DNA from: a virus
Lineage: Duplodnaviria > Caudoviricetes
IMG/VR virus record: IMGVR_UViG_3300047553_000334
Span: 1,875 to 65,874 of that record
Direction: 5' to 3' (one strand)
Length of the DNA stretch: 64,000 bases
Part shown: positions 25,726 to 48,500 of the stretch, one piece after another
Layout: each line of letters begins with the position of its first letter
Numbering within the stretch: the first letter of the stretch is position 1
Program-made: the position numbers and the translations under genes
The notes under the pieces: model-generated
Database searches by the model: none
What the model saw: the letters and a program-made list of their open reading frames with translations, nothing else
What the model was told of the DNA's origin: nothing

Positions 25726-25734
25726 TGTAAATTC

Positions 25735-26355: not shown

Positions 26356-26375
26356 TCTCTTTCCTTTGTTGGGAC

Positions 26376-26405: not shown

Positions 26406-26459
26406 CCATTTGGTTGTTGTTGGCTTCTGTGTTGATATGGTTTCAGAAGCACTGCAATC

Positions 26460-28694: not shown

Positions 28695-28721
28695 AACAAT
28701 GCAAGTATAGGTGTGATGCAG

Positions 28722-29698: not shown

Positions 29699-29712
29699 AA
29701 TTCTCCTTGTGT

Positions 29713-29754
29713 AAAAAGTTTGTGGAGCCTGAAATGCGTTTTAGGCTCCACAAA
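29713..29754 (-). terminator. Terminator-like hairpin
   Basis: TTTGTGGAGCCT.../...AGGCTCCACAAA inverted repeat followed by CTTTTT on the minus strand. Confidence 0.6.
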
Positions 29755-29773
29755 AGCATGCAAAATACTGTGT

Positions 29774-29790
29774 ATAGTATACCGTAGGTA
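29774..29790 (-). promoter_or_regulatory. Phage promoter/operator motif TACCTACGGTATA overlapping a TATACT -10 box
   Basis: 13-mer identical to 41935..41947; upstream of the replication operon. Confidence 0.55.
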
Positions 29791-29792
29791 AT

Positions 29793-30290
29793 CTACTCAC
29801 AAGTACATTTGTGTTCCCAGTTCTCGCACTGAACACACGTTTCAGCACCCATAAGATGAAGGTCATCATCTTCTAGGTCATCATCTGATCGTTGCTTGTG
29901 GCTGTATCCTTTTGGACCTGCGTAGATATCACCAGCAAACATCATGCCGGGTTCAGCGTAACGGCAGTAAAACTCAAGATCAGGGAACATGTCTGACATA
30001 GTCTGTAGCCATATGTCAGCCGGACCCCACGCTGTATCAAAGCCAATAACAATGTGACCTTCTTTGAAGTCTAGGTAGCATGTGTCACAAGCTCCCCACT
30101 TAGTACCCCAGTTATTATATTGCCATTCGACATTGCCATAGCCATTCTCATCTAACGGTTCTGGCACAGACTTATTAAAGTCTAGTACTGACATGCTTGT
30201 CTCATAATGTGTAGTGTGCAACTCAGCCCAAGCAGACACTTTGTCTGCTGGGCCAGTGATTGTCAATTCATTCATACACCAATTAGGCAT
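29793..30290 (-). CDS. DUF1281 / YubB ferredoxin-like domain protein
   Basis: MPNWCMNEL, LDFNKSVPEP, NNWGTKW, FDTAWGP, YAEPGMMFAG motifs. Confidence 0.8.
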   Translation of the reverse strand: MPNWCMNELTITGPADKVSAWAELHTTHYETSMSVLDFNKSVPEPLDENGYGNVEWQYNNWGTKWGACDTCYLDFKEGHIVIGFDTAWGPADIWLQTMSDMFPDLEFYCRYAEPGMMFAGDIYAGPKGYSHKQRSDDDLEDDDLHLMGAETCVQCENWEHKCTCE

Positions 30291-30301
30291 TGTGTTATTC
30301 C

Positions 30302-30637
30302 CTATCCGTAAACTAGTTCACCAAAACATATCTCTTGTAACATTGTGTCAATGACATCTTGATCTACTTGTTGCTCTTCTTCAAACGAGCGATCTCCAAT
30401 TAACCATGCTTTTTGCAACCATGTCAGCACGTCAAGAGAAGATATTGTATGCACCTCCTCTTCTTCATCATGAATATCTATATGGAACAATGTTTTTGGA
30501 TCATCAAAACCAATCCAGCTGGCATGCCATTTAACAACCCATTCACAGTGCCGGATACCTTCAGTGATTTGGTCATACCAAAACTCTCGATTAATATCAC
30601 CTACTACCCACTTAATATGTGTGTCACTTGCTTGCAT
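30302..30637 (-). CDS. Hypothetical protein
   Basis: 111 aa, AGGAG RBS; ends DTMLQEICFGELVYG, a recurrent phage early-gene motif. Confidence 0.7.
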   Translation of the reverse strand: MQASDTHIKWVVGDINREFWYDQITEGIRHCEWVVKWHASWIGFDDPKTLFHIDIHDEEEEVHTISSLDVLTWLQKAWLIGDRSFEEEQQVDQDVIDTMLQEICFGELVYG

Positions 30638-30932
30638 TTTTTAACTCCTGTAATGTATTCCAAATCCTGTCCCAATTTGTGCCAAAGTTAGCGTCAAATC
30701 CTTCGTGTAGTTCATTGACTACGTCAGGCCATTTATCTATGTGTTTGATTATCTGACGGACAATCTCATTGTATGAAGGCAAATGGTCTTTTGCTTCACC
30801 AACTACAAAATCCCATGGCCCCCATACTTCAATGTAAAACTCCGGGTATTTCTCCCGGAGTTCACGCAGCTCTGTTTCAAACGCATTATCGCGTTTTGTC
30901 CATTCTTCTTCTGTCATTAATCTTCTCCCCAT
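30624..30932 (-). CDS. Hypothetical protein
   Basis: 102-aa acidic ORF in a tightly overlapped operon. Confidence 0.65.
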   Translation of the reverse strand: MGRRLMTEEEWTKRDNAFETELRELREKYPEFYIEVWGPWDFVVGEAKDHLPSYNEIVRQIIKHIDKWPDVVNELHEGFDANFGTNWDRIWNTLQELKNASK

Positions 30933-31339
30933 CCATCTGGTTGCAGTAGTGAGCCATCATCATACAAGTCTTGACCGCTGTACATATCTGTCCATTCACT
31001 GTATGTACAGTCATAGATGTACTCAAACATAGCGTCATTGAACTCGTCGATGTTTCGCTCATGATACGTAGATGCAACAAGTGCACAGAACTTCTCGATC
31101 TCATCACTTGTTGGTCTGTCAATGTTTAATTGCTCGACAGCTTTGTCAATGAACTTGATGACGCTTCTGTCGTCATACACGACGCTGACATCCGTAAACA
31201 ACATTTTGCCCACACGTGACATCAACTCTACACCAATGCACGGGGAGAGAAACTCCCCGTCTTCTGTGTAGTGCTGATCACGTGCATAATCGTAGTGGTC
31301 AGTTGACCATTCTTCGTACTCACATACTGAATAAAACAT
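30917..31339 (-). CDS. Hypothetical acidic protein
   Basis: 140 aa, D/E/Y-rich, GAGG RBS. Confidence 0.65.
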   Translation of the reverse strand: MFYSVCEYEEWSTDHYDYARDQHYTEDGEFLSPCIGVELMSRVGKMLFTDVSVVYDDRSVIKFIDKAVEQLNIDRPTSDEIEKFCALVASTYHERNIDEFNDAMFEYIYDCTYSEWTDMYSGQDLYDDGSLLQPDGWGED

Positions 31340-31372
31340 ATTGTGTTACCTCGTGTTTATTTGTTTGTTTAA

Positions 31373-32266
31373 TTAAACCCACGCAGCTGCACTGCCATGG
31401 GCGCGAATGACAACATGACTGTCGCCATCACATTGGAGAGATGCAGGACAACCTACACAGGTTGTATGCATTGGTAGCATATTGCGATACGCTCGCATCT
31501 CATTGATGAACGGGTCGCTTGGGCACTGCTTCATACCCTTGCTGTAGGCTACGTGCCGACGATTGACGTAGTCATGCTCAGGTAGAACTGTAAACGTACC
31601 CCAGCCAGCTTGCTCTGCCTCGTACTGGTCAGTGTAGTTGTCGCATGACGCTTGTAGCACACCCTTGAATGGTTGAGCTAACTGCATGCGCCATTGGTGT
31701 GTGTAGCCACGATGGCCAAGGCTGTAGCGTAGCAGGTCACCCCAGACAGGAAATGGCACGGCTACAGGATCACCATATGAACCAATACGTGTCTCCTTAC
31801 CAGCAACAATTTGTATGGTTGCAGCGACAGTGCTAGACACAACAGGTATGTTGCCGCGTTGGAATGACTCCCAGATTGCAGTGACACCCTTGCCAATATT
31901 GACGTAGCACGTACGCACAAGCTTGACTTTGCCATTGACAATGTGCCTCTTCCAACCCTTGCGATGTACACATTTGCCACAGATGCAGTCGTCAATCATA
32001 AAGTCAATGGCGTGTTGAGGATGGATATCACGCATGATGATATAAGTCTGCAACATGTCACCAGTCTTGATGTTGTAATCCTCTGGGTTGTACTGGCAGT
32101 TGGACATCACAGCAATGATAGGGTGGCGTCGATCAAGTTGTGATGGCCCATTGTAGAAGCAGTACGAGTTGTACTTCGGCTTCATATGCTTGCCGTTAGT
32201 TACGTTGGTGAAAAGGGCTGGATTTGCATCTAGCCCAAACTTGTTGAGATATTCTTTAGCTGTCAT
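31373..32266 (-). CDS. Conserved Cys-rich phage enzyme-like protein (possible Fe-S / radical-SAM-like fold)
   Basis: GPSQLD, KTGDMLQTYI, ICGKCVHR, CYVN, RIGSYGDP, GYTHQW, ASCD, QCP, CVGC..C motifs. Confidence 0.6.
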   Translation of the reverse strand: MTAKEYLNKFGLDANPALFTNVTNGKHMKPKYNSYCFYNGPSQLDRRHPIIAVMSNCQYNPEDYNIKTGDMLQTYIIMRDIHPQHAIDFMIDDCICGKCVHRKGWKRHIVNGKVKLVRTCYVNIGKGVTAIWESFQRGNIPVVSSTVAATIQIVAGKETRIGSYGDPVAVPFPVWGDLLRYSLGHRGYTHQWRMQLAQPFKGVLQASCDNYTDQYEAEQAGWGTFTVLPEHDYVNRRHVAYSKGMKQCPSDPFINEMRAYRNMLPMHTTCVGCPASLQCDGDSHVVIRAHGSAAAWV

Positions 32267-32643
32267 TTTGTTACTCCATCATTCCAAAACCAATATTTAC
32301 TGTATTTGTTGTCGTCTTTCTCAATAATCTCACATATGTAATGCGCCTCCTCTTCACTGATACCATCCCAGCCAATGTTTACACCGACGGTGCTAAGGTC
32401 ATCGCATTCGCCTTCACACTTCTTGCCTACACAGTCAAGTGCAAAACCACACTCAATACGGAATGTCCACGTGTAGTGTGGATCGACCTCATCAAGCACG
32501 TCAATGCTGTACGTACGATGTGCATTAACAGGACAGTCTTTCCACTCACTGTTATGCCATTGCAACTCCCATATGGTTGCTGCAGTTTTCATAATCATCT
32601 CAGCAGCTGCATGGTAATACTCTTCTTTGTATCGCTTATTCAT
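32263..32643 (-). CDS. Hypothetical protein
   Basis: 126-aa ORF overlapping both neighbours. Confidence 0.6.
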   Translation of the reverse strand: MNKRYKEEYYHAAAEMIMKTAATIWELQWHNSEWKDCPVNAHRTYSIDVLDEVDPHYTWTFRIECGFALDCVGKKCEGECDDLSTVGVNIGWDGISEEEAHYICEIIEKDDNKYSKYWFWNDGVTK

Positions 32644-33052
32644 AATGACTCTTTGTTGTTACTTGGTTTTCGCCCGGCATCGATTCTATTGTCATGTAGT
32701 ATGTTGATGGTCCGTCATATCCGTCATCACTAACGTCTTCACCACGCCGATCAGCGCGTTCCATGTGACGCAGACAATCTTCGCCATCAGCTATTTTTGC
32801 TTCGTTATTTAATTGCTCACAACGTTCCTGTAGTTTTTTCATTAGCATTTCTGCTGCCTCACGAGACGAGCATTTGCAATACTCTTTTAGTATGTGTAGA
32901 TAACCCCACCATCCTCCTTCCTCTGGTCCACCGTAGTAAGATTCGCATTGATAAATAGAAAGGTAGCACTCTTGTGCTACCTCGCGGTCCTCTATAATTT
33001 CATTCCATGCTTGCAGGAATATGTTGTCATCACTCATAACGATCCTCCTCAT
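32636..33052 (-). CDS. Conserved phage hypothetical protein (YGGPEEGGWW motif)
   Basis: ESYYGGPEEGGWW motif that I recognise from phage early proteins. Confidence 0.7.
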   Translation of the reverse strand: MRRIVMSDDNIFLQAWNEIIEDREVAQECYLSIYQCESYYGGPEEGGWWGYLHILKEYCKCSSREAAEMLMKKLQERCEQLNNEAKIADGEDCLRHMERADRRGEDVSDDGYDGPSTYYMTIESMPGENQVTTKSHYE

Positions 33053-33413
33053 TTGATTTTTTGTATATTGCTTTTCCGTACTTTACTGGCATGACTCGTT
33101 CACCATGGCATTTGTAACAAGCCACGTCGTACACGCCCTCAAAGTAGTCCTCTTCGTAACCACCGTAATACATATCTTCAGCTGTTAGACCATCGCAATC
33201 AACAGAAGGATTAACGTGATGGCCTTTACCATCACATGTATCGCAGGCTTCATATTTGAATTTGTACCAAACTTGTTTATTGGTCTTACTGTCATACTTG
33301 TGCCTCACTAGCATCTTGCGTTCATCAATATCAATCCACCAACGATCACGACCACCGCGTACACGGTGGTCGTTTTGATAGTTGCGGTCTTCCAAGCTAA
33401 ACCATTCACTCAT
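33030..33413 (-). CDS. Zn-finger (CxxCxGxG) phage protein
   Basis: CDTCDGKG...VNPSVD...YDVACYKCHG; GGAG RBS. Confidence 0.7.
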   Translation of the reverse strand: MSEWFSLEDRNYQNDHRVRGGRDRWWIDIDERKMLVRHKYDSKTNKQVWYKFKYEACDTCDGKGHHVNPSVDCDGLTAEDMYYGGYEEDYFEGVYDVACYKCHGERVMPVKYGKAIYKKSNEEDRYE

Positions 33414-33708
33414 ATTGTTTCTTCAGCTCCTTGTATGTTTTACCTGTGTTCTCAAATGCAAGTGAGCAGAACACAATCTCTTGATGGCGTTCGCTATACA
33501 TGCGGTGATTACTACCATCGTAGTAGTACTCAACACCACGACGTAGTCCTACACAGCCAAGCTCTTCTGCACATGCACGGCGTAGTTTGATTGGGCTAGG
33601 AGGTGTACGATACACCTCATAGCGTTCTCCTTGTTTGTTGTTTGGTGTGTTGTCCCACATGCAACCCCACACCTCAAACTTATACACAACAGGGTTTTCT
33701 GCTTTCAT
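33406..33708 (-). CDS. Hypothetical protein
   Basis: 100 aa, GAGGAG RBS. Confidence 0.65.
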   Translation of the reverse strand: MKAENPVVYKFEVWGCMWDNTPNNKQGERYEVYRTPPSPIKLRRACAEELGCVGLRRGVEYYYDGSNHRMYSERHQEIVFCSLAFENTGKTYKELKKQYE

Positions 33709-33947
33709 TTTGTCTCCTCAATTATTGTGATGGTCACAACGTCATCTTCCCACTCGATGAACGAGTCATCACATTCAAGGCAATACTTAGCTCGCTTGTC
33801 GTTGTTGACCCAAGCTTTGAGTATGCCAAGAAAGTACTTCTTGTCTTTCTTGGACGCACCGCTCATGCGGTAATAGTGACGTGCCCAGCGCAACATGCCG
33901 GGAGCGTTGAACATTGGGACTGATACTAAAGCGATTCTTGTTTTCAT
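33705..33947 (-). CDS. Hypothetical protein
   Basis: Likely start ATG 33947 (ATGA overlap with the upstream stop). Confidence 0.55.
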   Translation of the reverse strand: MKTRIALVSVPMFNAPGMLRWARHYYRMSGASKKDKKYFLGILKAWVNNDKRAKYCLECDDSFIEWEDDVVTITIIEETK

Positions 33948-34183
33948 ATTTTGTTTCCATTCATGTGATGATCGATGAGGGCTTGTTGATAGCCATACAG
34001 CCATGTCATGGCCTCACTAAACCCACAGGCTCTTGCTCCACAGTCGGCTGTAAAGTAATCACCGTACATACCTTTTGGTGCAAACTTGTAGCGTGTAACG
34101 CCATCGCCTGGGCTGTATGTAAATACGTCTAGGTTGCAGTGTTTAAGCACTGCATTCATGTGTTCTTTATCTCGCTTTGTCAT
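33944..34183 (-). CDS. Hypothetical protein (TYSPGDGVTRY motif)
   Basis: 79 aa, GAGG RBS, recurrent phage early-gene motif. Confidence 0.65.
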   Translation of the reverse strand: MTKRDKEHMNAVLKHCNLDVFTYSPGDGVTRYKFAPKGMYGDYFTADCGARACGFSEAMTWLYGYQQALIDHHMNGNKI

Positions 34184-34447
34184 TTAAATACCTCTTAGTG
34201 TTCTTGCTTCTGCGCTTGTAACAACTCGTACAATTGAGTCGATTACATCTTGTGGGCAGTCTCCTTCTTCAAGGACTGCCATGACAGCTTCCATAGCTGC
34301 CTCAAGGATTTCTTCCTGTGTATAGTCTTCCTCTGGGTCAAAGTAATCCCAAAGGCTCACGTCTGGTAAGTCATTGGTTGTTAATCCAATGTGGTCAATC
34401 ATAAGCTGATCGACGACAGCGCGGAATGTTTGAAGAGTGTATTTCAT
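34184..34447 (-). CDS. Hypothetical acidic protein
   Basis: 87 aa, DLPDVSLWDYFD; AAGGA RBS preceded by a pseudoknot motif. Confidence 0.7.
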   Translation of the reverse strand: MKYTLQTFRAVVDQLMIDHIGLTTNDLPDVSLWDYFDPEEDYTQEEILEAAMEAVMAVLEEGDCPQDVIDSIVRVVTSAEARTLRGI

Positions 34448-34467
34448 TTGTTTGTCCTTTGTTTGGT

Positions 34468-34498
34468 TGTGCGTTGTTGGTGAGACGCACCCCTCACA
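34468..34498 (-). ncRNA. Leader H-type pseudoknot motif, copy 1
   Basis: GUGAG-GGGUGCGU-CUCAC-CAACA-ACGCAC: 5-bp stem whose loop GUGCGU pairs with downstream ACGCAC. Confidence 0.65.
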
Positions 34499-34504
34499 TT
34501 GTCA

Positions 34505-34990
34505 CTAGGCGAGTTCGACTAGGTCGCTGTTGTCACGTGCAGTCGATGCCACACACTTATCGAACTGTGGCATTGAAGTAGCGACGTACTTCCAGAAGTC
34601 GAACGGAACCGCAGGAAGCTCAATGTCTTTGATGATTACATTGAACGCCTTGATAGCCTCCTGAATTTGGTCATCAAGTGTCTCAGATGTAGTCTTGACA
34701 GTGAACGTACGCAGCTTTCTACTGGATGGATCAGTGCGTTGGTTCTCGTCTTCGTACATATTCAGTGATACATCGATCTTGGCTACGACTCGGTCAAGCA
34801 ATGCCAAGTCTCGTGTTGCCACATCAATACGGAGATGAAAATTGAGGGCAACGCGATGACCATTGATGTTGAACTCTTTGTCATGGTGTGTTGTCTCATA
34901 ATAATCGTATGTATTGCCGATGCCTCCGCTAATACGGCGAATGTCATCAGAGAGACGAGAGACGAAATAGTCAAACGTAGGTGTAGACAT
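34505..34990 (-). CDS. Hypothetical protein
   Basis: 161 aa, preceded by pseudoknot motif copy 2. Confidence 0.7.
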   Translation of the reverse strand: MSTPTFDYFVSRLSDDIRRISGGIGNTYDYYETTHHDKEFNINGHRVALNFHLRIDVATRDLALLDRVVAKIDVSLNMYEDENQRTDPSSRKLRTFTVKTTSETLDDQIQEAIKAFNVIIKDIELPAVPFDFWKYVATSMPQFDKCVASTARDNSDLVELA

Positions 34991-35009
34991 AGTTGTTATG
35001 TTCTCTTTC

Positions 35010-35040
35010 TATGCGTTGTTAGTGAGACGCATCCCTCACA
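35010..35040 (-). ncRNA. Leader H-type pseudoknot motif, copy 2
   Basis: GUGAG-GGAUGCGU-CUCAC-UAACA-ACGCAU: compensatory G-C to A-U change in stem 2 relative to copy 1. Confidence 0.65.
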
Positions 35041-35047
35041 TAAAACA

Positions 35048-35302
35048 TTAGATAGCGATGTAGCAGTTTTTGATTTCTTTGATGCCAGCTTCTTTGATGA
35101 TGTGATTACGTACATCAGCAACTTGCGATTCGTCTAGATATTGAATAGCCTCGCCAAGCCAAAGCAAGACATAGTTGTTCTCATTACGTAGGTCATCAAA
35201 AACTTTTGTCAATCTGTCGTATTGACCTTGCGTTATTAGATTGTTATTAAATAGTGACTCAATAAGTATCTCGCCACTAATAACTTCAAACGGCATTTTC
35301 AT
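35048..35302 (-). CDS. Hypothetical protein
   Basis: 84 aa, ATGA overlap. Confidence 0.6.
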   Translation of the reverse strand: MKMPFEVISGEILIESLFNNNLITQGQYDRLTKVFDDLRNENNYVLLWLGEAIQYLDESQVADVRNHIIKEAGIKEIKNCYIAI

Positions 35303-35571
35303 TTGATTAGATTCTCTTTCTTTTTTGTTTGTGTTGGTTGTCCAGTTTTGTTATCAAACCAGACAAGCATGTACGGCTCATCAATGTATGTGCCAATTTT
35401 TCTACGTGTTATTCGTACGTGCATTACAGGTGTGGTCTCTTGCTGGATGATAACTCTATATCGAGACCAAGTCTTAGCCCATGCTGCAGTTCTCCAAACA
35501 ATAGGAGGGCCGAATTCTCGGCCCTCAAAGTCATAACATTGACAAAGGTAACTATATGGATAGTTAGCCAT
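35299..35571 (-). CDS. Hypothetical protein
   Basis: 90 aa, GAGGT RBS. Confidence 0.6.
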   Translation of the reverse strand: MANYPYSYLCQCYDFEGREFGPPIVWRTAAWAKTWSRYRVIIQQETTPVMHVRITRRKIGTYIDEPYMLVWFDNKTGQPTQTKKKENLIK

Positions 35572-35887
35572 TACTTGTATCTACCTCATCCCAACCTTTA
35601 GGGTTGACTGGTATTTCCTGTAGTGTTGCCATCCACTTATCAAACGCAAGCAGTTCTTCGTGTGTTGGCTCATCGTTAATCCAGTCATCAAAGCCCATGA
35701 CATTGCGCGTGTCATGTGGGACATGCGCATCTGCAAAGTCAAGGATCTCTGCAAGAAACATGCGAGCTTGCCCGTCAAGAAACTGTTGAAACTGCGGAAC
35801 TAACTTGATGAGTCGCTCAATGCCTCCACCCGGATGAATGTGAAGGTATGCAAATCTCAAGATGAGGATTTTGTAGTGTTTAGTCAT
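35564..35887 (-). CDS. Hypothetical protein
   Basis: 107 aa, GGAG RBS, ATGA overlap. Confidence 0.65.
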   Translation of the reverse strand: MTKHYKILILRFAYLHIHPGGGIERLIKLVPQFQQFLDGQARMFLAEILDFADAHVPHDTRNVMGFDDWINDEPTHEELLAFDKWMATLQEIPVNPKGWDEVDTSNG

Positions 35888-36255
35888 TTGTTATCGTTCT
35901 CCATTTCTTTCTGCATAAATGTGATGAATTGTGTTGCCCACAACCGGAGTGCTTCTGCGTTAGACTCAAACGTCCATTGCTCATGGATATTTGCTGCAGC
36001 AAGTCTAATTTGTCCATATGCGTTGTCAACAAGGTCAACATCAACACGGACTGTCACGTCTTGATATGGCCTTTCTCGATACAACTCAATGGTCATGGTC
36101 TGAGTCAGTTTTGTTGTACGACTAATTCTGGTGAAACTGTGTATGCCTCCACGCACTGTCATGTCAGTGAATGGATCAGTTGATTTACCTCTTAGCAATT
36201 CATACAGAGATGAAGCTACTTCTTGTGGGGACTCGTAACGATTATTCAGATTCAT
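35884..36255 (-). CDS. Hypothetical protein
   Basis: Likely start ATG 36255 after AAAGGA. Confidence 0.6.
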   Translation of the reverse strand: MNLNNRYESPQEVASSLYELLRGKSTDPFTDMTVRGGIHSFTRISRTTKLTQTMTIELYRERPYQDVTVRVDVDLVDNAYGQIRLAAANIHEQWTFESNAEALRLWATQFITFMQKEMENDNK

Positions 36256-36358
36256 TGTCAATCCTTTGTTGATACTCAGTAACTGAGTGAAAGAACCATC
36301 CAATCAAAAATAGAATGGATAGCAATGCGATGAGAGTGCAAATGATTATTGCAATCAT
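36242..36358 (-). CDS. Small single-TM membrane peptide (38 aa; not in ORF track)
   Basis: MIAIIICTLIALLSILFLIGWFFHSVTEYQQRIDNESE*; GAGGA RBS; overlaps the next gene. Confidence 0.65.
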   Translation of the reverse strand: MIAIIICTLIALLSILFLIGWFFHSVTEYQQRIDNESE

Positions 36359-36406
36359 GATTCGTTCCTCAATAATAACGTTCTAATTATTATTGTTCAA
36401 TGTAAT

Positions 36407-36474
36407 GAGGGGTACAATTTTTATACCCCTCTAGGGTACAAAATTTGAGGGGGCTAAATTTTATACCCCCTCAA
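36407..36474. repeat. Cluster of related palindromes GAGGGG(TA)-N9-12-(TA)CCCCTC
   Basis: Two full palindromes (36407-36431, 36445-36474) with a half copy AGGGTACAAAATTT between them, next to an AT-rich tract. Confidence 0.65.
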
Positions 36475-36477
36475 TTT

Positions 36478-36816
36478 TTATGCCATGTTTCGCACTCGAT
36501 TGATGATGTTGAGTGCCCGGCAGAGGACAACTTCCTCGCTTGGTGTGACCTTCACCTTGTCGAGTACACGCCTCCACAGGCGGTTGCGCCAGCGTGTGCT
36601 ATTGGTGTACGTGCTGTAGGTAGCAGGTCGTACGTCGATGAGATCCGCCAATACCTTGACTGGTAGTGCGTCCTCAAGAAGCATCATGCACATTTCCTCT
36701 TTGGGAGAAACTTGCACGTCCTCAATGAGTCCTGCTTCACGCAGGGCGTTGAACTGCTCGTACTTGATACCAGCAGCTCGTAAAGCGTCAATTTGTTCTT
36801 GTGTGAATGGTTTCAT
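36478..36816 (-). CDS. Hypothetical protein
   Basis: 112 aa, AGGAG RBS. Confidence 0.7.
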   Translation of the reverse strand: MKPFTQEQIDALRAAGIKYEQFNALREAGLIEDVQVSPKEEMCMMLLEDALPVKVLADLIDVRPATYSTYTNSTRWRNRLWRRVLDKVKVTPSEEVVLCRALNIINRVRNMA

Positions 36817-37040
36817 AGTTCACTCCTAAGTTTGTTTACCAACATACCAACGGGATTCTGCATTTTCTCAGCAGCGTGTGCCCCAAATCTGAGGATATCC
36901 TCATCATTGAGGTTGTTAAACCCAGACATAGCTTCGTTTACGTAGTCCTCTTGGGAGTATTGTGCCCAGAGGAGAATGTCTGTGTCATACATCCACAGTA
37001 CGTACGTCTTTATCGCGTCTAACGCTTGCTCTCTTGTCAT
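36813..37040 (-). CDS. Hypothetical protein
   Basis: 75 aa, ATGA overlaps. Confidence 0.65.
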   Translation of the reverse strand: MTREQALDAIKTYVLWMYDTDILLWAQYSQEDYVNEAMSGFNNLNDEDILRFGAHAAEKMQNPVGMLVNKLRSEL

Positions 37041-37246
37041 TTGATACCTAACCTTTTGTTTTTGCGTGTCTCACGATCGTCGTGAAACGTCTCGACGAGA
37101 AGTGTGTCAAGCTCCTCAACAAGTTGTCTAAGATGATTCTCCGGCGCTGGAAAAGTCACCCCATGTAATCGATATGTTTTATGCATAGCGCTTGAGACCT
37201 CAGCGATCTTGGCTTGCAGCTCATTGATTCTTTGTTGATTTTTCAT
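37037..37246 (-). CDS. Hypothetical coiled-coil protein (69 aa)
   Basis: Start re-assigned to ATG 37246, because the longer ORF-track version runs through a hammerhead ribozyme and the upstream gene. Confidence 0.6.
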   Translation of the reverse strand: MKNQQRINELQAKIAEVSSAMHKTYRLHGVTFPAPENHLRQLVEELDTLLVETFHDDRETRKNKRLGIK

Positions 37247-37260
37247 GGTTTGTATCCATA

Positions 37261-37326
37261 TGACCTGACTCATCAGTGCAAGGCGGTCAACTCTTACAGA
37301 CTTCTCCGCATGGGAGAAGTTTCGTC
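37261..37326 (-). ncRNA. Hammerhead ribozyme, type II (HH-D)
   Basis: GAC-GAAA-CUUCUCC[CAUGC]GGAGAAG-UC^UGUAAG[AGUUGACCGC]CUUGCA-CUGAUGA-GUC-A-GGUCA. Full core; loop I UGACC pairs with 3' GGUCA. Predicted cut 37299/37298. Confidence 0.88.
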
Positions 37327-37779
37327 TTACAAGAGTCCGGTTGCTTCCATACTCTTGAACACCTGCAAGTGGTAGATGCTCCGGTATGTGCCGTACCACA
37401 TGTGGAAGCCACAGTTCTTGATCGTCAACAACACATCCTTCTTGAATGGGAAGTTGTGCTCAGGTTGTACGACCTTAGCCTCCTTGCCAGTATGGGCAAA
37501 GAACATGGCGTTGATTTGCTCTGCCTCATCACGGTCAATGAAGAGGCAAAGCATCTGCTCTTTGCTGTCCTTCTCCATAGTGACAACATACTCACCGTCT
37601 GTTGTCTGGAGAACGTACGGCCACTGGGGGAAGTCAAGCATCTCATTGACATCGATGTTGTTCTCATCGGCATACTCGCGTACGCAAAGATGGAAGTTAG
37701 TCATCTCTTTCTTGACCTCCTTGGCAAGCCAAGCGGTTTCGATACGTTTGATCAGATTAGGTTTCTTGTTTGTTTTCAT
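37327..37779 (-). CDS. Hypothetical protein
   Basis: 150 aa, AGGAG RBS, directly downstream of the Csx16-like gene. Confidence 0.75.
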   Translation of the reverse strand: MKTNKKPNLIKRIETAWLAKEVKKEMTNFHLCVREYADENNIDVNEMLDFPQWPYVLQTTDGEYVVTMEKDSKEQMLCLFIDRDEAEQINAMFFAHTGKEAKVVQPEHNFPFKKDVLLTIKNCGFHMWYGTYRSIYHLQVFKSMEATGLL

Positions 37780-37788
37780 TTGTTTCTC

Positions 37789-38118
37789 CTAGTAGTAATT
37801 GACACCGACTTCGTCGCGGATGTCGTTCCATGCCTCAATAGTCATGACTTTGTAACCAACGAGGCTTGCACCGCACTGATCCATTTGCTCTGGAGTCAGC
37901 TCCTTGCCTCGCAGTTCCAATGGCAGGTTAGGTAAATCCACCGACCACACCTCACGGGCATGGCAGGCGAGGTGCATCGGGATGACACCGATGACCTTGC
38001 GTCCTCGCATCAGGTCAGGTGTTGCGTGGGCAACGACTGTTACATCCGGGCTAACGTGCCCGTGCAGTACTAGCCATTGCACCAAGCCAATATGTCGAGA
38101 GATAACTATTGTTTCCAT
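37789..38118 (-). CDS. csx16: Csx16-like (Cas_VVA1548 family) protein, candidate cyclic-oligoadenylate ring nuclease
   Basis: TIVISRHIGLVQWL...VVAHATP...VIGVIPMHLA...LPLELRGKELTPEQMDQCGASL matches the Csx16 pattern as I recall it (SRH.G..EW; H; VIG.LP.HLA; RG.ELS...GA.L). ATG 38118 after AAGGA. Confidence 0.8.
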   Translation of the reverse strand: METIVISRHIGLVQWLVLHGHVSPDVTVVAHATPDLMRGRKVIGVIPMHLACHAREVWSVDLPNLPLELRGKELTPEQMDQCGASLVGYKVMTIEAWNDIRDEVGVNYY

Positions 38119-38146
38119 AGTTTCTTTGTTTCCTTGTGTTTGAAGT

Positions 38147-38178
38147 ATGCGTTGTTCACCGAGTCGCACCCCTCGGTG
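38147..38178 (-). ncRNA. Leader H-type pseudoknot motif, copy 3 (upstream of csx16-like gene)
   Basis: CACCGAG-GGGUGCGA-CUCGGUG-AACA-ACGCAU: stem 1 covaries relative to copies 1 and 2. Confidence 0.6.
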
Positions 38179-38251
38179 AGTGAGATATGGCCACGTTGGC
38201 ACCACTCACTCGGTCAATGCGGTTACGCCTCTTCGTAACCTGTGATATCTG

Positions 38252-38308
38252 ACGTGTTTCGGCGTGACTGCCTCATCAGCCTATAGGAATCACCCTATAG
38301 GTACACGT
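38252..38308 (-). ncRNA. Hammerhead ribozyme, type III (HH-C)
   Basis: ACGUGUA^CCUAUAGG[GUGAUU]CCUAUAGG-CUGAUGA-GGC[AGUCAC]GCC-GAAA-CACGU. Canonical core; loops I and II are complementary. Predicted cut 38302/38301. Confidence 0.92.
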
Positions 38309-38340
38309 TGGGGTGGCACGTGAGCACCACCCCGTACTAC

Positions 38341-38451
38341 TTAGTGACCGTATCGATGCATCGGAAGCGTTGACAGCATCCAATACATAAGCACTAAGCC
38401 TCCGACGATAATGACGGCAGTGATGCCGTCCGTGATGAACTTCTTCTTCAT
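38341..38451 (-). CDS. Small single-TM membrane peptide (36 aa; not in ORF track)
   Basis: MKKKFITDGITAVIIVGGLVLMYWMLSTLPMHRYGH*; ATGA overlap with 38448..38687. Confidence 0.6.
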   Translation of the reverse strand: MKKKFITDGITAVIIVGGLVLMYWMLSTLPMHRYGH

Positions 38452-38687
38452 CTTCCACCCACCTTTCTTGCAAGGGCTACCACTTCAGGGTCGGTGTCGC
38501 CACCAACCAAGCGAGCAAGCCCCATCATGTGTCCCTCCAGCTCGCGGTAGCTGAAGATGTGCACGTTGACCATCATCTCCCCGCAAGCGGACTTAATGGA
38601 GATGGATGTCTTTGAAACGCTTGTCGGCGTAGAGATGGTGAAGGACCACTTTCGGTTTGCGGTCATGAAGGCGCCATTAAATTCCAT
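38448..38687 (-). CDS. Hypothetical protein
   Basis: 79 aa, AAAGGA RBS immediately after HH-B. Confidence 0.7.
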   Translation of the reverse strand: MEFNGAFMTANRKWSFTISTPTSVSKTSISIKSACGEMMVNVHIFSYRELEGHMMGLARLVGGDTDPEVVALARKVGGR

Positions 38688-38715
38688 GGCTCGTTGTTTC
38701 CTTTGTTTTTTGGTT

Positions 38716-38773
38716 ACGTGTTTCGCCTAGACTGGCCTCGTCAGCTCATTGCCATCACACAATGAGGACACGT
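38716..38773 (-). ncRNA. Hammerhead ribozyme, type III (HH-B)
   Basis: ACGUGUC^CUCAUUG[UGUGAUGG]CAAUGAG-CUGACGA-G-GCC[AGUCUA]GGC-GAAA-CACGU. Predicted cut 38767/38766. Confidence 0.88.
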
Positions 38774-38789
38774 TTAAAAGGGTGGGGGC

Positions 38790-39077
38790 TTACGCCCCCT
38801 TGGTGAAGGTGCAGTTGTCGTACTCGAAACTGCACGGTGTACCGTTCCACTGCCGGGAAATCCAGTACGCCCCTTCGATGTCGATTGGCTTGATGGTGTG
38901 CGAGCGACTTGCGCAAGCAAGCATCTGAAGCAGATATCCGTCTGTCCAGTTAGACATCTGATTCACGAACGTCTTACCGTCTTCGACTACGTATGGACCA
39001 CGCGTAGTGGTCAGCGTCCACGTACATACTACGTACGGTTCACTTGGGGTTGATTGTGTGTGTGTTGCGAATGACAT
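38790..39077 (-). CDS. Hypothetical protein
   Basis: 95 aa, AAAGGA RBS with an A/C-rich leader. Confidence 0.65.
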   Translation of the reverse strand: MSFATHTQSTPSEPYVVCTWTLTTTRGPYVVEDGKTFVNQMSNWTDGYLLQMLACASRSHTIKPIDIEGAYWISRQWNGTPCSFEYDNCTFTKGA

Positions 39078-39105
39078 GGCTCATTATCCTTTATGTGTTT
39101 TTTTG

Positions 39106-39141
39106 AAAAATAAAGCACCCGGTATCGTGTACCGGGTGCTT
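39106..39141 (-). terminator. Intrinsic terminator
   Basis: 12-bp stem AAGCACCCGGTA/TACCGGGTGCTT ending in UUUAUUUUU on the minus strand, just after the stop of 39149..39490. Confidence 0.75.
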
Positions 39142-39148
39142 CCGGGGA

Positions 39149-39490
39149 CTATTCGTCCCCTTCGTCCCCAGCCATGGCTGTCGCCATCGCCGTCTTGGTC
39201 ATCGCCTTCAACGATGCCATGAATGGGTCGATTGGCTTGGCAGCCTTGACTGCCACTTCGAGATTCGCGAGTTGAGTACCGATTCTGTCCAGAACCAAGC
39301 GGTAACTATCGGCATCGGTTTGCCGCTTCCGGAAACCGACCGCATACACCGTCTGAATGGACTGCCAGCCCTTATTGATTGTATCTTCGGTCATTGGCAG
39401 ACCGGTTGCGATGTGACCGGCGATATCGCTTTCAAACTTGCGAATCGCATTCATCGCGGGTTCGAATATCACGGGTTGTTTTGTTGACAT
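39149..39490 (-). CDS. Hypothetical protein (first gene of the minus-strand unit)
   Basis: 113 aa, AAAGGA RBS, GC-rich codons. Confidence 0.75.
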   Translation of the reverse strand: MSTKQPVIFEPAMNAIRKFESDIAGHIATGLPMTEDTINKGWQSIQTVYAVGFRKRQTDADSYRLVLDRIGTQLANLEVAVKAAKPIDPFMASLKAMTKTAMATAMAGDEGDE

Positions 39491-39524
39491 AATAAAGTTT
39501 CCTTTATCGGTATGTTAGATTGTA

Positions 39525-39588
39525 TTGATGTTTCGACATAGGTTTGTCATTATCAAGCGTACCGTTACCAGCGGTAACACGACATCAA
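39525..39588 (-). ncRNA. Hammerhead ribozyme, type III, U3-A8 core variant (HH-A)
   Basis: UUGAUGUC^GUGUUACCG[CUGGUAA]CGGUACGC-UUGAUAA-U-GACA[AACCUA]UGUC-GAAA-CAUCAA. Core C3-G8 replaced by U3-A8. Predicted cut 39581/39580. Confidence 0.75.
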
Positions 39589-39889
39589 GGTTTTGAAGGT
39601 TTCCAGCGGTGGAAACCAGCGGTACCGGACGACCCCGGAGGGCGTCCACACCATGTATGTAGGTCGGTTTTCAGGGCACAGTCACGTCGGGTGGTGGGGT
39701 GGCGGTAGTACCCGGCATGGCAAGGGGGTGGGTCGGTTGCCTCGGCACAGTAGGGACTCCAAACCATATATTCTCAGCTGATCTTTATCTATTTCTCCCA
39801 TCGCAGAAACTCATCTCCCCACGGAGAAAATGATTAGGATCCATATAGATTTGCTACAATCAGCTGGTTTAGATATACTTACGGTATGA

Positions 39890-45571: not shown

Positions 45572-48500
45572 ATGGCATCGTTACTGTCTAGTTTAATCAT
45601 GGGGCAACCCGGTCAAGCAACGGATAAAGATAAAGTTAATCAAGGTGCGCAACCACCAGTGCCTCCAACTCCTCCAGCTGGTGGTGCGCCAGGATTACCG
45701 TCTATTCCACCTGTTGCACAGCAGCAACCAACTGGACAGCAACCGCCATCAAATCAGCCATCCGGAGGACCAGTATTTCCTGCTCCTCCGGGTTTTAATC
45801 CAATTCAATTTGACCCTATTGCAAGTATGTCAAAGGTTTTTGGAAACCTTCCACAAGCCACAGGAGGTGCACCGGGATCTGTACTTGGACAAACAAAGGC
45901 TGAAACAGTAACAAAGATTGATCCTAATACATGGGATATGGCAGCCATTCAGCCAAAGGCTGCGCGACTAGATTGGTATTTACGTTCGCAGAAATCTGGA
46001 TCACTTACTAGTGGTGCTGATTTATTAAAAGGTATGCAGTCGTTTCTGCAAAGTGAGGCATCTGGTAAATCACAGACAGCAGGTACAACTCGTGCAGATA
46101 TAACTGGTGATGATCCATTTTTAAAGACAGTTAGTTATGCTACGTCGTTGTACAACAATGGCGGAACCGTTGAGCGTAAGATGGCTGATGCTTATGCTAA
46201 TGGATTGATGTACATGACATCTGCATTAGCACGTAATGATCAGCAAGGTGTTGATGCAGCTAAGTTTTATTTAAGTGACTTAAGCGATTACACAGTAGAA
46301 GATTTCCGAAGTCCTAAAACACAAACGTATTTTGCCAAGCAAGCTGCGTCAGTAGTAAAACCGTACGTATTAAATAAATCATCCGACGAACTTACTAAGA
46401 TGTCGGAAGAAGTTAAACCGGAAGCTGTACGGAAAAAATTACTAGGTAACGTTTTATACGACTACGTACAAAGTCGTTTCACGGATTTACGAACCGAAGC
46501 ACAATCGGGAAGTCCAACTGCAAATGCTGCTCGTAAAACATTAAATACATTTACTAAGATGTATGGTGACTTGGCACGTCCAGCAATCGAAGGGCAGCGT
46601 GACAAACAAGTTGAAATGTTTATGGAGTCACCGCAAGGTCGTGCTCTTATTGACGATGCCTACGATCAATTCGATGGCCAAGGCTTATTTAATACACAAA
46701 AAGCAAAAGACCTTGTTACACGCATGGGTCAGAAAATTAAGTCAACTCAAGGTACTGGTTCTTTTGATCCAGCTAATGACGTTACTCCACAAGAATTAAA
46801 AGATTTCTTTGGTCAAACAAAAATGAAGCGCTATATATCTAGCGCAATTGACATTGATCCAAATATTAGTGATGAGGCATTACGTCGGTTTGAATTAGAC
46901 CCGTCAAATGTAGATGACGATGAAATGTATGGTGCACTGACACCATCCGGTGTTGCTGCACTTTATGGCAAGAAGGACGACTCTCTTGTTGGAGACGTAG
47001 GTCGTGCTGGGCGTCCAGACCCATATATGTATGATCTATCGTCTAACTTCTCGGCTAATCAAACACAAGCACCATCTACATTGTCTGGTGGTAATACAGG
47101 GCGTATTAGGTCACGTGCTGAGCTTGCAGGTGCAATGGCATCTGGATTAGGTTTAAGTGAAGCACAGTTAGAGCAAGCAGCCCGTAAGTTATTCTCTAAT
47201 ACAGACGATATTTCTGAGTTTGTAAATGCGGGTATGAATGATTACGACATTGAGTCGGATATTCTGCCAAAGGTACAGACCGACATTAAGTCGTCCCGCA
47301 TTTCGCAAACAGGTGGCATAAAAACAGCTGGTACATCCACGGGTACATATAACTTACTTACTGATACGTTTAAAGCCGTAGATGAAGTCATGCCGGGTGG
47401 ACCACAGCAATCATCATGGTTAAACAAAAAACGCGCCCTTAACGATATTGCTGTGCAGGCTCGTAATCTTGAAGGCACTGCTGTATCTGCTGCTGGTTCT
47501 AGGTTTGCTAAGACTGCTACCGGTGAACCAGATTACTTTAATCCAATATTGCCTGACCGTGGTGATCAGGTAGGACGCATACAAATCCTGCAAGATATTT
47601 TTAAACATGCAAGTGAGAATTCCAAGTACCGAACTGATTTACAAAATCTTATTCGCAGTGCAATAGATGGCAGGCCATACACAGGCGACATTAAGATGAC
47701 TCCATCGCAGTTGTCTTCCGTTGTTAGTATTTATGCAAAGCACCTAGAAGAAGCTGCGTCAGCAAATCCAACAGCAGCTGGAAGCCCAAACCAGTTATTT
47801 AATTCCATGTTTGGCATCCTGCCATCCGACTATAACAAACGCGATTTGCGCATGAAGATTTTGAAGTCATTGCAATCAGCAAGTCCTTCTAAGTTTAAAA
47901 CAATGTCGAGCACAATGGAAGTTGAACCCAGTGGAAACACTAGGTTAATACCAGTTGCTAATGCTGGACAGGTTATGGAAAATGCGTCTAGCATTCCGGG
48001 AGACACTGGAGCAAAAGGTGGACGTAGTAGTAAAACTGAGAATGCTGCACTAAACAGAGTTGAACGTAGTCAGCAAATTTTAGGCGATATTTTTAAAACT
48101 GCTAAAGATTCTATTCTTTCGTATACCAATGATATTGGTTTAGGTGAATCAATTGGTGCAACAACTGCTCCATCAAAATTTAAGGATGGCGTAGTCGCAG
48201 CGTTTGATAAAGCTATTGGTGATTCTTTAGCTAAGTACAAAATTGACCCAAATGATAAACCAAAGTTTGACCGCATGGTCGAAAAAATTAAAGAGCAGTT
48301 AGTTGATCAGGCATCTACTGAATGGATGAAGGGTACTGTAACTGGTCAAGAAGTCGACAATATATTTAAACAATTTGGACAAGTCCAAAGATCCATTGGC
48401 GCAACGGGTATGTCTGATGCTGCAGCACCAGCAGTAGGACGAAATGTGCCTACTAGAGATGATGCTAATGCAGCTAAAGTAACTGAGGGTCGTAAGATTT

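What the first reader, a model, noticed from the sequence alone, without database searches (positions are those of the whole stretch)
37261..39588. Four hammerhead ribozymes punctuate the first 2.3 kb of the minus-strand (early) transcription unit
Seen: four complete hammerhead folds on the coding strand, each in an intergenic space upstream of a gene: HH-A 39525-39588, HH-B 38716-38773, HH-C 38252-38308 (type III) and HH-D 37261-37326 (type II). All have CUGANGA-type and GAAA cores and GUH cleavage triplets, while their stem I and II sequences differ, so structure rather than sequence is conserved. Known: hammerhead cleavage leaves 5'-OH and 2',3'-cyclic phosphate ends, and 5'-OH RNAs resist 5'-monophosphate-dependent decay. 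Inference: the phage processes its polycistronic early RNA without proteins into stabilised mRNAs of 814, 465 and 1003 nt plus a downstream piece. This would be a ribozyme analogue of T7 early-mRNA processing by RNase III.
Basis: partly seen in the sequence, partly recalled or inferred. Interest (0 to 1): 0.92.

Follow-up and report, generated by a model that had tools for sequence, protein, structure and literature searches.

The report
Four hammerhead ribozymes between phage genes
A 66-kb uncultured phage carries four self-cleaving hammerhead RNA motifs between its first leftward genes, conserved in its closest relatives; this arrangement was already described for prophages in 2011, so it is a well-supported new example, not a new mechanism.

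Summary
All four motifs are at the stated coordinates on the minus (coding) strand, in gaps between ORFs. A strict hammerhead descriptor finds HH-B, HH-C and HH-D and nothing else in the 65,874-bp genome (200 shuffles, mean 0.05). HH-A appears only when the U3/A8 core variant and one stem bulge are allowed (4 observed against 0.26 expected).

Only HH-D reaches an Rfam cut-off. Eight related viral contigs carry hammerheads at the same gene boundaries. Stems, and HH-D's pseudoknot, covary. The flanking proteins are only 29-81% identical. Nine more distant relatives have no convincing copy.

Self-cleavage at module boundaries is the likely mechanism, but no RNA data could be obtained. A strong conserved terminator lies inside the predicted 814-nt piece. 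mRNA stabilisation is inference.

Perreault et al. 2011 (PMC3088659) already reported clustered hammerheads flanking prophage genes and proposed transcript processing.

Features seen here:
- A GC hairpin sits before every type III copy.
- A terminator replaces HH-C in one relative.
- The first position carries core variants.
- A Csx16-like gene sits in a variable slot.

Verdict: new member of a known kind.

The parts
39525..39588 (-). HH-A, a type III hammerhead. Core is UUGAUAA (U3/A8 covariant) with one extra U after A9. Cut after C39581. It lies 34 nt upstream of the gene 1 ATG.
   Evidence: Found by the relaxed descriptor. The MFE fold is a three-way junction. R1 gives 11.0 bits, rank 3 in the window. 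Position-A homologues show 10 of 13 pairs with compensatory changes.
38716..38773 (-). HH-B, a type III hammerhead. Core is CUGACGA plus one extra or bulged G. Cut after C38767.
   Evidence: Found by the strict descriptor. Fold. Covariation.
38252..38308 (-). HH-C, a canonical type III hammerhead. Core is CUGAUGA. Cut after A38302.
   Evidence: (z = -2.97).
37261..37326 (-). HH-D, a type II hammerhead with a pseudoknot between loop I and the 3' tail. Cut after C37299. Stem II starts directly after the stop codon of gene 6.
   Evidence: RF02276 scores 37.5 bits against a cut-off of 37. Found by the descriptor. 126 of 126 cells are paired, and 2 stem I pairs and 2 pseudoknot pairs covary.
39627..39647 (-). 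Conserved GC hairpin (the 'anchor') 38 nt upstream of HH-A. A second, window-specific hairpin lies at 39598-39617.
38784..38799 (-). GC hairpin GGGGGC-GUAA-GCCCCC 10 nt upstream of HH-B. The gene 2 stop codon lies in its loop.
   Evidence: Present before every position-B copy, with loops that vary.
38310..38333 (-). 10-bp GC hairpin 1 nt upstream of HH-C.
39112..39142 (-). Intrinsic terminator-like hairpin (13 bp plus a T-run) right after gene 1.
   Evidence: Similar hairpins follow gene 1 in L086, L083 and G001, read by eye.
39149..39490 (-). Gene 1, 113 aa, unknown function.
38790..39077 (-). Gene 2, 95 aa, unknown function.
38341..38687 (-). Genes 3 (79 aa) and 4 (36 aa, hydrophobic), which overlap by 4 nt. 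This is the module between HH-B and HH-C.
37327..38118 (-). Genes 5 (109 aa, Csx16-like) and 6 (150 aa), 9 nt apart. This is the module between HH-C and HH-D.
37037..37246 (-). Gene 7 (69 aa), the first gene after HH-D. Genes 7-9 overlap by 4 nt.

Best explanation
The window holds four genuine hammerhead ribozymes in the first 2.3 kb of the phage's leftward (minus-strand) gene block. Three are type III and one is a pseudoknotted type II.

As the RNA is made, each ribozyme folds and cuts itself after its GUH triplet. The cuts fall only in gaps between translationally coupled gene modules:
- leader | HH-A | gene 1 + terminator
- gene 2 | HH-B | genes 3-4
- genes 3-4 | HH-C | genes 5-6
- genes 5-6 | HH-D | genes 7-9 and onward

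Each cut leaves the upstream RNA ending a few bases after a stable hairpin, with a 2',3'-cyclic phosphate. For the type III copies this is a GC hairpin. For HH-D it is the ribozyme's own stem III. The downstream RNA starts with a 5'-OH and the folded ribozyme body, followed by an A-rich leader and a Shine-Dalgarno site.

The likely effect is to uncouple neighbouring modules in stability and translation. In this view the ribozymes act as insulators and 3'-end-forming devices that do not stop the polymerase.

Shown here: the motifs, their strand and placement, their conservation and their covariation. Inferred: cleavage itself, one transcript spanning all four, and every downstream consequence.
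For: Motifs beyond chance:
- 3 strict hits against 0.05 expected.
- 4 relaxed hits against 0.26 expected.
- No other hit on either strand of the genome.

Folding and family score:
- All four fold into the expected junction at minimum free energy.
- HH-D reaches the Rfam RF02276 cut-off.

Conservation across 8 related contigs:
- Position A is present in 8 of 8.
- Position B, or a single B/C-like copy, is present in 7 of the 7 that reach that far.
- Position C is present in 5 of 7.
- Position D is present in 5 of the 5 that reach that far.

Covariation:
- HH-D: 126 of 126 cells paired, 4 pairs changed on both sides, 2 of them in the pseudoknot.
- HH-B/C: 139 of 139 cells paired, 12 of 17 pairs compensatory.
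- Position A: 94.4% paired, 10 of 13 pairs compensatory.
- In all three alignments, 0 of 500 shuffles reached the observed covariation score.

The ribozymes (80-85% column identity) are better conserved than the flanking proteins (29-81% identity).

Placement:
- Same strand as all ORFs from 23240 to 39490.
- All four cuts lie outside ORFs.
- Genes inside a module overlap by 4 nt or lie 9 nt apart.

Upstream hairpins:
- All 19 type III instances listed fold at -12.7 kcal/mol or lower in the 45 nt upstream.
- Only 70 of 1463 genome windows (4.8%) fold that well.
- In L091 a hairpin plus U-run terminator occupies the HH-C boundary.

Precedent (Perreault 2011, PMC3088659, passages read):
- Triple hammerhead arrangements cleave in vitro, and one cleaves in E. 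coli.
- The U3/A8, U4C and A6a core variants occur in nature.
Against: - No RNA ends, expression data or cleavage assay.
- Rfam thresholds are not met by HH-A, HH-B or HH-C. HH-D passes by only 0.5 bit, and only when a short stretch is searched.
- HH-A has a non-consensus core and one extra base. It scores E about 0.9 with a model built from HH-B and HH-C.
- Seven of the 8 position-A copies in relatives have core variants, and Perreault et al. report some of these as slow. Position A may cut poorly.
- No convincing leftward promoter was located. One search found 4 promoter-like sites against 4.0 expected.
- The terminator after gene 1 may limit how much RNA reaches HH-B, HH-C and HH-D.
- 5'-OH protection and hairpin protection are general knowledge, not tested here.
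- Nine more distant relatives manage without hammerheads.
Confidence: 0.72

Rival explanations
1. HH-B, HH-C and HH-D are active ribozymes. The position-A element, HH-A included, is attenuated or inactive. It is kept as a structured 5'-UTR element, or as a slow, condition-dependent switch, rather than as a constitutive cutter.
For: Position A carries a non-consensus core in the window and in 7 of 8 related contigs:
- UUGAUAA in the window.
- CCGACGA in 6 contigs.
- CUGAAUGA in 1 contig.
- Consensus CUGACGA only in L093.

All copies have one extra base after A9. Perreault 2011 reports that U4C 'considerably decreases activity in vitro' and that an insertion after A6 gives low activity. R1 gives HH-A only 11 bits.
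Against: - The hammerhead fold at position A is strongly maintained by compensatory changes.
- The invariant G5, A6, A9, G12-A14, A15.1-U16.1 and C17 are kept in all 7 distinct sequences.
- The loop I / loop II complementarity switches sides between subgroups: GGU(U)/(A)ACC against ACC(U)/(A)GGU. I read this.
- U3/A8 is reported as active, and U4C as sufficient in vivo.
Confidence: 0.3
2. The ribozymes cut, but the purpose is down-regulation, not stabilisation. Cleavage separates genes from their promoter-proximal context and exposes ends that speed decay, which sets a graded or short-lived expression of early genes.
For: - The function of bacterial and phage hammerheads is unresolved according to the 2019 review PMC6765202 (passages read). 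That review mentions different stabilities or translation efficiencies as possibilities.
- The terminator after gene 1 already suggests graded expression along the block.
Against: - A stable hairpin sits just upstream of every type III cut.
- The structured 5' end of each downstream piece looks protective.
- No cut falls inside an ORF.
Confidence: 0.2
3. Pieces released between two hammerheads are re-joined. This could be by the ribozyme's reverse reaction or by a host RtcB-type ligase. The result would be circular or spliced RNAs, as in viroids and retrozymes.
For: - HH-B and HH-C have identical stem III strands (ACGUGU/ACACGU) in the window, L083 and L086. The two ends of the 465-nt piece could therefore pair within a hybrid hammerhead.
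- The ends carry a 5'-OH and a 2',3'-cyclic phosphate.
Against: - In L082 and L088 the two stems III differ. By my reading the hybrid would have only about 4 pairs, two of them wobble.
- L091 lacks HH-C altogether.
- Perreault et al. looked for spliced or circular products and found none.
Confidence: 0.05
4. The motifs are chance matches to a short consensus.
For: - The hammerhead consensus is short.
- Weak chance-like hits do occur in distant relatives: G004 with stems of 4/3/3-4 bp and G010 with 5/3/3 bp.
Against: - Shuffle controls.
- All four are on one strand within 2.3 kb.
- They are conserved and covary in relatives.
Confidence: 0.01

Closest known systems
Clustered hammerhead ribozymes flanking genes in prophages (Perreault et al. 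2011, PMC3088659; Agrobacterium tumefaciens, Azorhizobium caulinodans and Clostridium scindens triple arrangements)
   Same: - Several hammerheads of mixed types lie within about 2 kb on the coding strand, flanking single genes or short gene blocks.
- The gene content between them is variable.
- Pseudoknot tertiary contacts are present.
- One flanked gene there is anti-restriction ardA. Here one flanked gene is Csx16-like.
- The proposed role is the same: processing of a long phage transcript.
   Different: - Here there are four copies in an apparently complete 66-kb phage contig with no close cultured relative. Only 5 weak terminase matches were found.
- An orthologous set is tracked across 8 contigs.
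- A GC hairpin precedes each type III copy.
- A terminator substitutes for one copy in one relative.
- Core variants are concentrated at the first position.
- Their supplementary figures and alignments could not be opened, so I cannot say whether this clade is already in their dataset.
HHphage of haloviruses HF1/HF2 (described in PMC3088659, passage read)
   Same: A hammerhead sits in the 5' UTR of the first ORF of an early polycistronic transcript, 13 nt before the start codon there and 34 nt here for HH-A. It is a non-standard variant. A mapped 5' end lies within 3 nt of its cleavage site.
   Different: The host is archaeal and the variant architecture differs. It is a single ribozyme, not a series.
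RNase III processing of phage T7 early mRNA
   Same: A polycistronic early RNA is cut in intergenic regions into smaller mRNAs that end in hairpins.
   Different: The T7 system uses a protein enzyme that recognises double-stranded stems and leaves 5'-phosphate and 3'-OH ends. No RNase III sites were tested here. This is an analogy of outcome, not membership.
Synthetic ribozyme insulators such as RiboJ (recalled, no paper read)
   Same: A hammerhead placed before a gene removes upstream context and gives a defined 5' end.
   Different: RiboJ is an engineered part. A natural insulating role here is only a hypothesis.

Membership tests
Hammerhead ribozyme | Conserved core: C3 U4 G5 A6 N7 G8 A9, G12 A13 A14, A15.1-U16.1, H17 | tested here: met
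   Met exactly by HH-C and HH-D. Met by HH-B with one extra or bulged G next to stem II. HH-A departs from it, with U3/A8 and one extra U. Perreault 2011 lists U3/A8 as a natural active covariation.
Hammerhead ribozyme | Three helices around the core, supported by compensatory changes in homologues | tested here: met
   Folds. Covariation (HH-D; HH-B/C, 12 of 17 pairs; position A, 10 of 13 pairs).
Hammerhead ribozyme | Tertiary contact between stem I and stem II regions (loop-loop or pseudoknot) | tested here: met
   HH-D has a 4-5 bp pseudoknot with 2 covarying pairs. For position A, the complementary loop triplets or quadruplets swap sides between subgroups, read. For HH-B/C, UGAU/GUCA-type complementarity is present but invariant, so it is uninformative.
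Hammerhead ribozyme | Score at or above the Rfam gathering threshold of a hammerhead family | tested here: inconclusive
   HH-D scores 37.5 against 37 for RF02276 on a 4-kb stretch, but it is not listed in the whole-window gathering run. HH-B scores 25.0 and HH-C 17.4 bits for RF02276, both misregistered. RF00008 gives at best 16 bits against 48.5. HH-A is not reported by any Rfam search.
Hammerhead ribozyme | Site-specific self-cleavage giving 5'-OH and 2',3'-cyclic phosphate ends | not testable with these tools
   This needs an in vitro transcription assay or end-specific RNA-seq.
Clustered phage/prophage hammerheads (Perreault 2011) | Two or more hammerheads in close proximity on the coding strand, flanking genes or short gene blocks of a phage | tested here: met
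   Four lie within 2.33 kb, all on the minus strand and all intergenic. Phage identity comes from the portal, terminase and major head protein hits.
T7-type RNase III mRNA processing | RNase III recognition hairpins at the cut sites, and dependence on host RNase III | not tested
   Considered only as an analogy. Nothing in the calls addresses RNase III sites.

The most novel reading that the evidence does not exclude
Hairpin-plus-hammerhead units are polymerase-transparent 3'-end formers and insulators. They are functionally interchangeable with intrinsic terminators at fixed cassette boundaries. This would let the phage clade swap early accessory or anti-defence genes, such as the Csx16-like ring-nuclease candidate, without disturbing the neighbours. 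The first ribozyme would be tuned by tolerated core variants (U3/A8, U4C, A6a-type insertion) to set how much leader-free mRNA is made.
Probability: 0.2. Interest if true: 0.65.

Novelty: new member of a known kind. Interest (0 to 1): 0.4.

Why it matters
The biological role of genome-encoded hammerheads in bacteria and phages is still open, according to the review PMC6765202 (passages read). This clade offers a clean comparative system with these properties:
- Four orthologous ribozyme positions across at least 8 contigs.
- Sister lineages without convincing copies.
- Ribozymes better conserved than the proteins they flank.
- A natural swap of a terminator for a ribozyme at one boundary.
- A natural series of core variants at one position.

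These properties make the processing and insulation hypothesis directly testable with short synthetic constructs. The arrangement itself was published in 2011, so the finding does not change what is known.

Tried and rejected
Rfam on the whole window at gathering thresholds found only two tRNAs. RF00008 is a poor detector for these type III copies. I therefore wrote a descriptor with shuffle controls.

Nucleotide and protein searches of GenBank phages gave no close relative:
- The nucleotide search matched only the tRNA-Asn.
- The terminase protein search gave 5 weak partial matches.

Searching viral contigs with gene 6 found nothing. Homologues do exist, at 42-63% identity, so that blank came from the method.

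The 18-nt anchor pattern hit 9 stretches. Two of them, L090 and L092, are unrelated high-GC contigs, and I dropped them from all counts. From the pattern scan, L081, L085 and L087 are not relatives of this phage. L081 has its own type III hammerhead, and L085 and L087 did not pass the descriptor. They were not used further, except that L081 was one row of alignment A2.

A single MAFFT alignment of all type III copies (A1 and A2) was out of register between position A and positions B/C. A4 was off by one base for two rows. I used A5 and the re-trimmed A7 instead. For A7 only 3 outer stem I pairs could be scored, because the bulges differ between sequences.

Model R1, built from B/C copies, found no further copy in the window or in five distant relatives.

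The conserved leader upstream of HH-A gave a consensus fold with only 1 covarying pair among 47. I make no structural claim for it.

PHROGs gave no hit for the 10 early ORFs tested. Pfam and NCBIfam gave none above threshold apart from the Csx16-like match of gene 5. Pfam gave nothing for the two giant ORFs.

Supplementary files of PMC3088659 (alignments, Figures S1-S8) were not opened. They may already contain relatives of these ribozymes.


Full report
**What the window is.** The window is 64,000 bases of a single 65,874-bp virus contig.
- The plus strand encodes terminase, portal and major head protein, two tRNAs, and two giant ORFs of 4254 and 2126 aa with no Pfam match.
- The minus strand from about 39,500 down to 23,240 is a run of small ORFs ending in a DnaB-type helicase.
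- None of the 10 leftward ORFs tested has a PHROG hit.
- No cultured phage is close. Nucleotide similarity is limited to the tRNA-Asn. The terminase finds only 5 partial matches below 30% identity.
- IMG/VR holds many relatives: 272 of 274 candidate stretches encode a terminase relative.

**The observation.**
- HH-C (38308->38252) is a textbook type III hammerhead: ACGUGU-A, an 8-9 bp stem I, CUGAUGA, a 3-bp stem II, GAAA, ACACGU.
- HH-B (38773->38716) has the same architecture with CUGACGA and one extra or bulged G beside stem II.
- HH-D (37326->37267) is type II. Stems I and III are closed and the 3-bp stem II is open. Loop I UGACC is complementary to GGUCA just 3' of stem II.
- HH-A (39588->39525) has a 7-bp stem III, GUC, an 8-bp stem I with one bulged U, stem II GAC/GUC and GAAA. 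Its core reads UUGAUAA followed by an extra U. This is the U3/A8 covariant of the C3-G8 pair. Perreault et al. 2011 describe that variant as occurring naturally and as active (PMC3088659, section 8 read).

**Chance.**
- A strict descriptor (consensus core, at most one extra base after A9, stems of at least 4, 3 and 3 bp, all three topologies, both strands) finds HH-B, HH-C and HH-D and nothing else in the whole genome. Two hundred dinucleotide shuffles gave a mean of 0.05 hits, with 10 of 200 shuffles giving one.
- Allowing U3/A8 or U4C cores and one stem I bulge adds only HH-A. That gives 4 loci, all with at least 17 bp. Shuffles gave a mean of 0.26 loci, and 0.02 with at least 17 bp.
- Minimum-energy folds give the hammerhead junction for HH-A, HH-B and HH-C. 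For HH-D they give stems I and III, with the 5' GAC paired to the downstream GUC of the tail.

**Rfam is less kind.**
- The whole-window gathering run lists no hammerhead.
- HH-D reaches 37.5 bits against a cut-off of 37 for RF02276 when 4 kb are searched.
- HH-B and HH-C are matched only by a permuted misalignment to RF02276, at 25.0 and 17.4 bits.
- RF00008 gives at best 16 bits against 48.5.
- A covariance model built from HH-B/C homologues (R1) ranks HH-A third in the window in the correct register, but at 11 bits and E about 0.9. HH-A therefore rests on the descriptor and on comparative evidence.

**Relatives.** I collected related early regions in three ways: a pattern scan for the shared stem III, a scan for an 18-nt conserved hairpin upstream of HH-A (with two unrelated high-GC hits dropped), and whole-record fetches.

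This gave eight related contigs.

| Contig (locus) | Positions found |
|---|---|
| L086 | A, B, C, D |
| L088 | A, B, C, D |
| L089 + L084 (one contig) | A, B, C, D |
| L082 | A, B, C; locus ends before D |
| L083 | A, B, C; locus ends before D |
| L091 | A, B, D; position C holds a hairpin plus U-run terminator |
| L093 | A; contig ends there |
| G001 | variant A, one type III at the B-like boundary, D |

- G001's position-A copy has an 8-nt core (CUGAAUGA). I found it by eye, not with the descriptor.
- Nine larger genomes with only about 68-74% terminase identity have no convincing copy. Seven have none at all. G004 has one weak locus (stems 4/3/3-4 bp) and G010 another (5/3/3 bp). Both are in line with the false-positive rate.
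- The ribozyme set therefore marks one sub-clade.

**Covariation.**
- For HH-D (6 sequences) all 126 cells pair. Two stem I pairs and two pseudoknot pairs change on both sides. None of 500 shuffles reaches the covariation score.
- For HH-B/C (9 sequences) all 139 cells pair and 12 of 17 pairs show compensatory change.
- For position A (7 distinct sequences) 94.4% of 89 cells pair and 10 of 13 scored pairs are compensatory. Only the outer three stem I pairs could be scored, because the bulges differ.
- Reading, the loop I / loop II complementarity at position A switches sides between subgroups: GGU(U) with (A)ACC, against ACC(U) with (A)GGU.
- Perreault et al. state that pseudoknots of four or more pairs between loop I and the bases after stem II are common, and that pseudoknots occur in all three types.
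- A crystal structure of a pseudoknotted hammerhead has been published (PMC11300833, abstract seen).
- The flanking proteins are only 29-81% identical between the window and these relatives, and some slots hold unrelated genes. The ribozymes are 80-85% identical by column. Selection is on the RNAs.

**Anatomy around the ribozymes.**
- All four cuts lie outside ORFs.
- HH-A ends 34 nt before the gene 1 start.
- HH-B lies 16 nt after the gene 2 stop and 28 nt before the gene 3 start.
- HH-C lies 32 nt after the gene 4 stop.
- HH-D begins on the base after the gene 6 stop. The same abutment holds in all five relatives that have HH-D.
- Genes within a ribozyme-bounded module overlap by 4 nt or are 9 nt apart.
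- Every type III copy listed (19 of 19, some from near-identical loci) has a hairpin folding at -12.7 kcal/mol or lower in the 45 nt upstream. Only 70 of 1463 genome windows (4.8%) fold that well.
- For type II HH-D, the ribozyme's own 8-bp stem III ends the upstream product.
- A 13-bp terminator with a T-run follows gene 1. By eye, a similar hairpin with a T/A-rich tail follows gene 1 in L086, L083 and G001.
- No leftward promoter stood out. One search found 4 promoter-like sites against 4.0 expected.

**Most likely mechanism.**
- The ribozymes cut the nascent leftward RNA at module boundaries.
- Each cut leaves a hairpin-capped 3' end with a cyclic phosphate upstream.
- It also leaves a 5'-OH, ribozyme-structured 5' end downstream, ahead of an A-rich leader and a Shine-Dalgarno site.
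- That should uncouple neighbouring modules while letting the polymerase continue.
- A true terminator sits at the HH-C boundary in L091. This fits the idea that both devices define a 3' end there.
- The motifs, placement and selection are shown. Cleavage, transcript continuity, timing ('early') and any stabilising effect are inferred.
- The terminator inside the 814-nt piece means that piece needs read-through. Termination would instead give a gene 1 RNA of about 470 nt.

**Position A deserves caution.** The window and seven of the eight related copies have non-consensus cores. Perreault et al. report that U4C strongly lowers activity in vitro yet suffices in vivo, and that an insertion after A6 gives low activity. 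The extra base after A9 recalls a viroid hammerhead with an extra core nucleotide. I saw that paper only as a title in a reference list, and the exact position is from my recall. Position A may be a deliberately slow ribozyme, or it may have drifted toward a purely structural role.

**Comparison with what is known.**
- Perreault et al. [quoted passage not shown] - They reported that three triple arrangements cleave as expected in vitro, and one does so in E. coli. One of those flanks the anti-restriction gene ardA.
- They also describe a hammerhead 13 nt upstream of the first early ORF of haloviruses HF1/HF2, with a mapped 5' end within 3 nt of the cut.
- The 2019 review PMC6765202 still calls the purpose unresolved.
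- The T7 RNase III analogy is about outcome only.
- This finding is therefore a new, well-documented member of a known kind.

**What I could not do.** The supplements of PMC3088659 were not opened, so I cannot exclude that this clade is already in their alignments.

Noticed in passing
window 37789-38118 (-): Gene 5, in the variable slot between HH-C and HH-D, matches Pfam PF09652 Cas_VVA1548 (62.8 bits against a cut-off of 25). It also matches NCBIfam TIGR02620 Csx16, but below the cut-off (35.9 against 46.35). A passage in PMC12830947 says Csx16 is a cA4-specific ring nuclease and that phage-borne ring nucleases can act as anti-CRISPRs. This is therefore a candidate anti-type III CRISPR gene. 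Relatives carry unrelated ORFs in this slot.
   Followed up: partly
window 39589-39860 (-): About 270 nt of non-coding leader lie between the tRNA-Asn gene and HH-A. It has blocks conserved across 7 sequences, for example GAGAATATATGGTTTGGAGTC, CACCCCCTTGCCATG and CACGTGACT. The consensus fold has only 1 covarying pair of 47. It may hold the divergent promoters: a plus-strand TTGCTA-17-TATACT lies at 39851-39879.
   Followed up: partly
L091, boundary after the gene 4 homologue: Where the other relatives have a GC hairpin plus HH-C, this contig has a GC hairpin followed by a U-run (a terminator-like element) and no hammerhead.
   Followed up: partly
window 39112-39142 (-): A strong intrinsic terminator-like hairpin (13 bp, 7 of them GC, then a T-run) lies directly after gene 1. 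By eye, similar hairpins with T/A-rich tails follow gene 1 in L086, L083 and G001. Gene 2 starts about 35 nt later with no promoter-like site between.
   Followed up: partly
window 38119-38251 (-): The spacer between HH-C and gene 5 is 133 nt and contains several hairpins, for example GGUUACG...CGUAACC and GAGUGAG...CUCACUC. In relatives this spacer is only about 30-40 nt. It may have arrived with the gene 5 cassette.
   Followed up: no
window 36405-36471 (-): Two tandem copies, 40 nt apart, of a hairpin with a G/C-rich stem (GAGGGG...CCCCTC) and a TATAAAA(A)TT loop lie in a gap between ORFs. Part of this region is similar in relatives. It may be an internal regulatory region that ends the ribozyme-bearing unit.
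   Followed up: no
window 35000-35059 (-): A 40-55-nt element containing a GUGAG...CUCAC hairpin is over 90% identical to 2 or 3 places each in the distant relatives G002, G003 and G004 and to one place in the closer relative G001. The window itself has a single copy.
   Followed up: no
window 9696-22460 (+) and 45572-51952 (+): Two giant ORFs of 4254 aa and 2126 aa have no Pfam match. The 2126-aa ORF also has no PHROG match.
   Followed up: no
L081 7576-7632 (-): An unrelated 81.6-kb viral contig carries a type III hammerhead with the same stem III sequence (ACGUGU/ACACGU) but different stems I and II.
   Followed up: no
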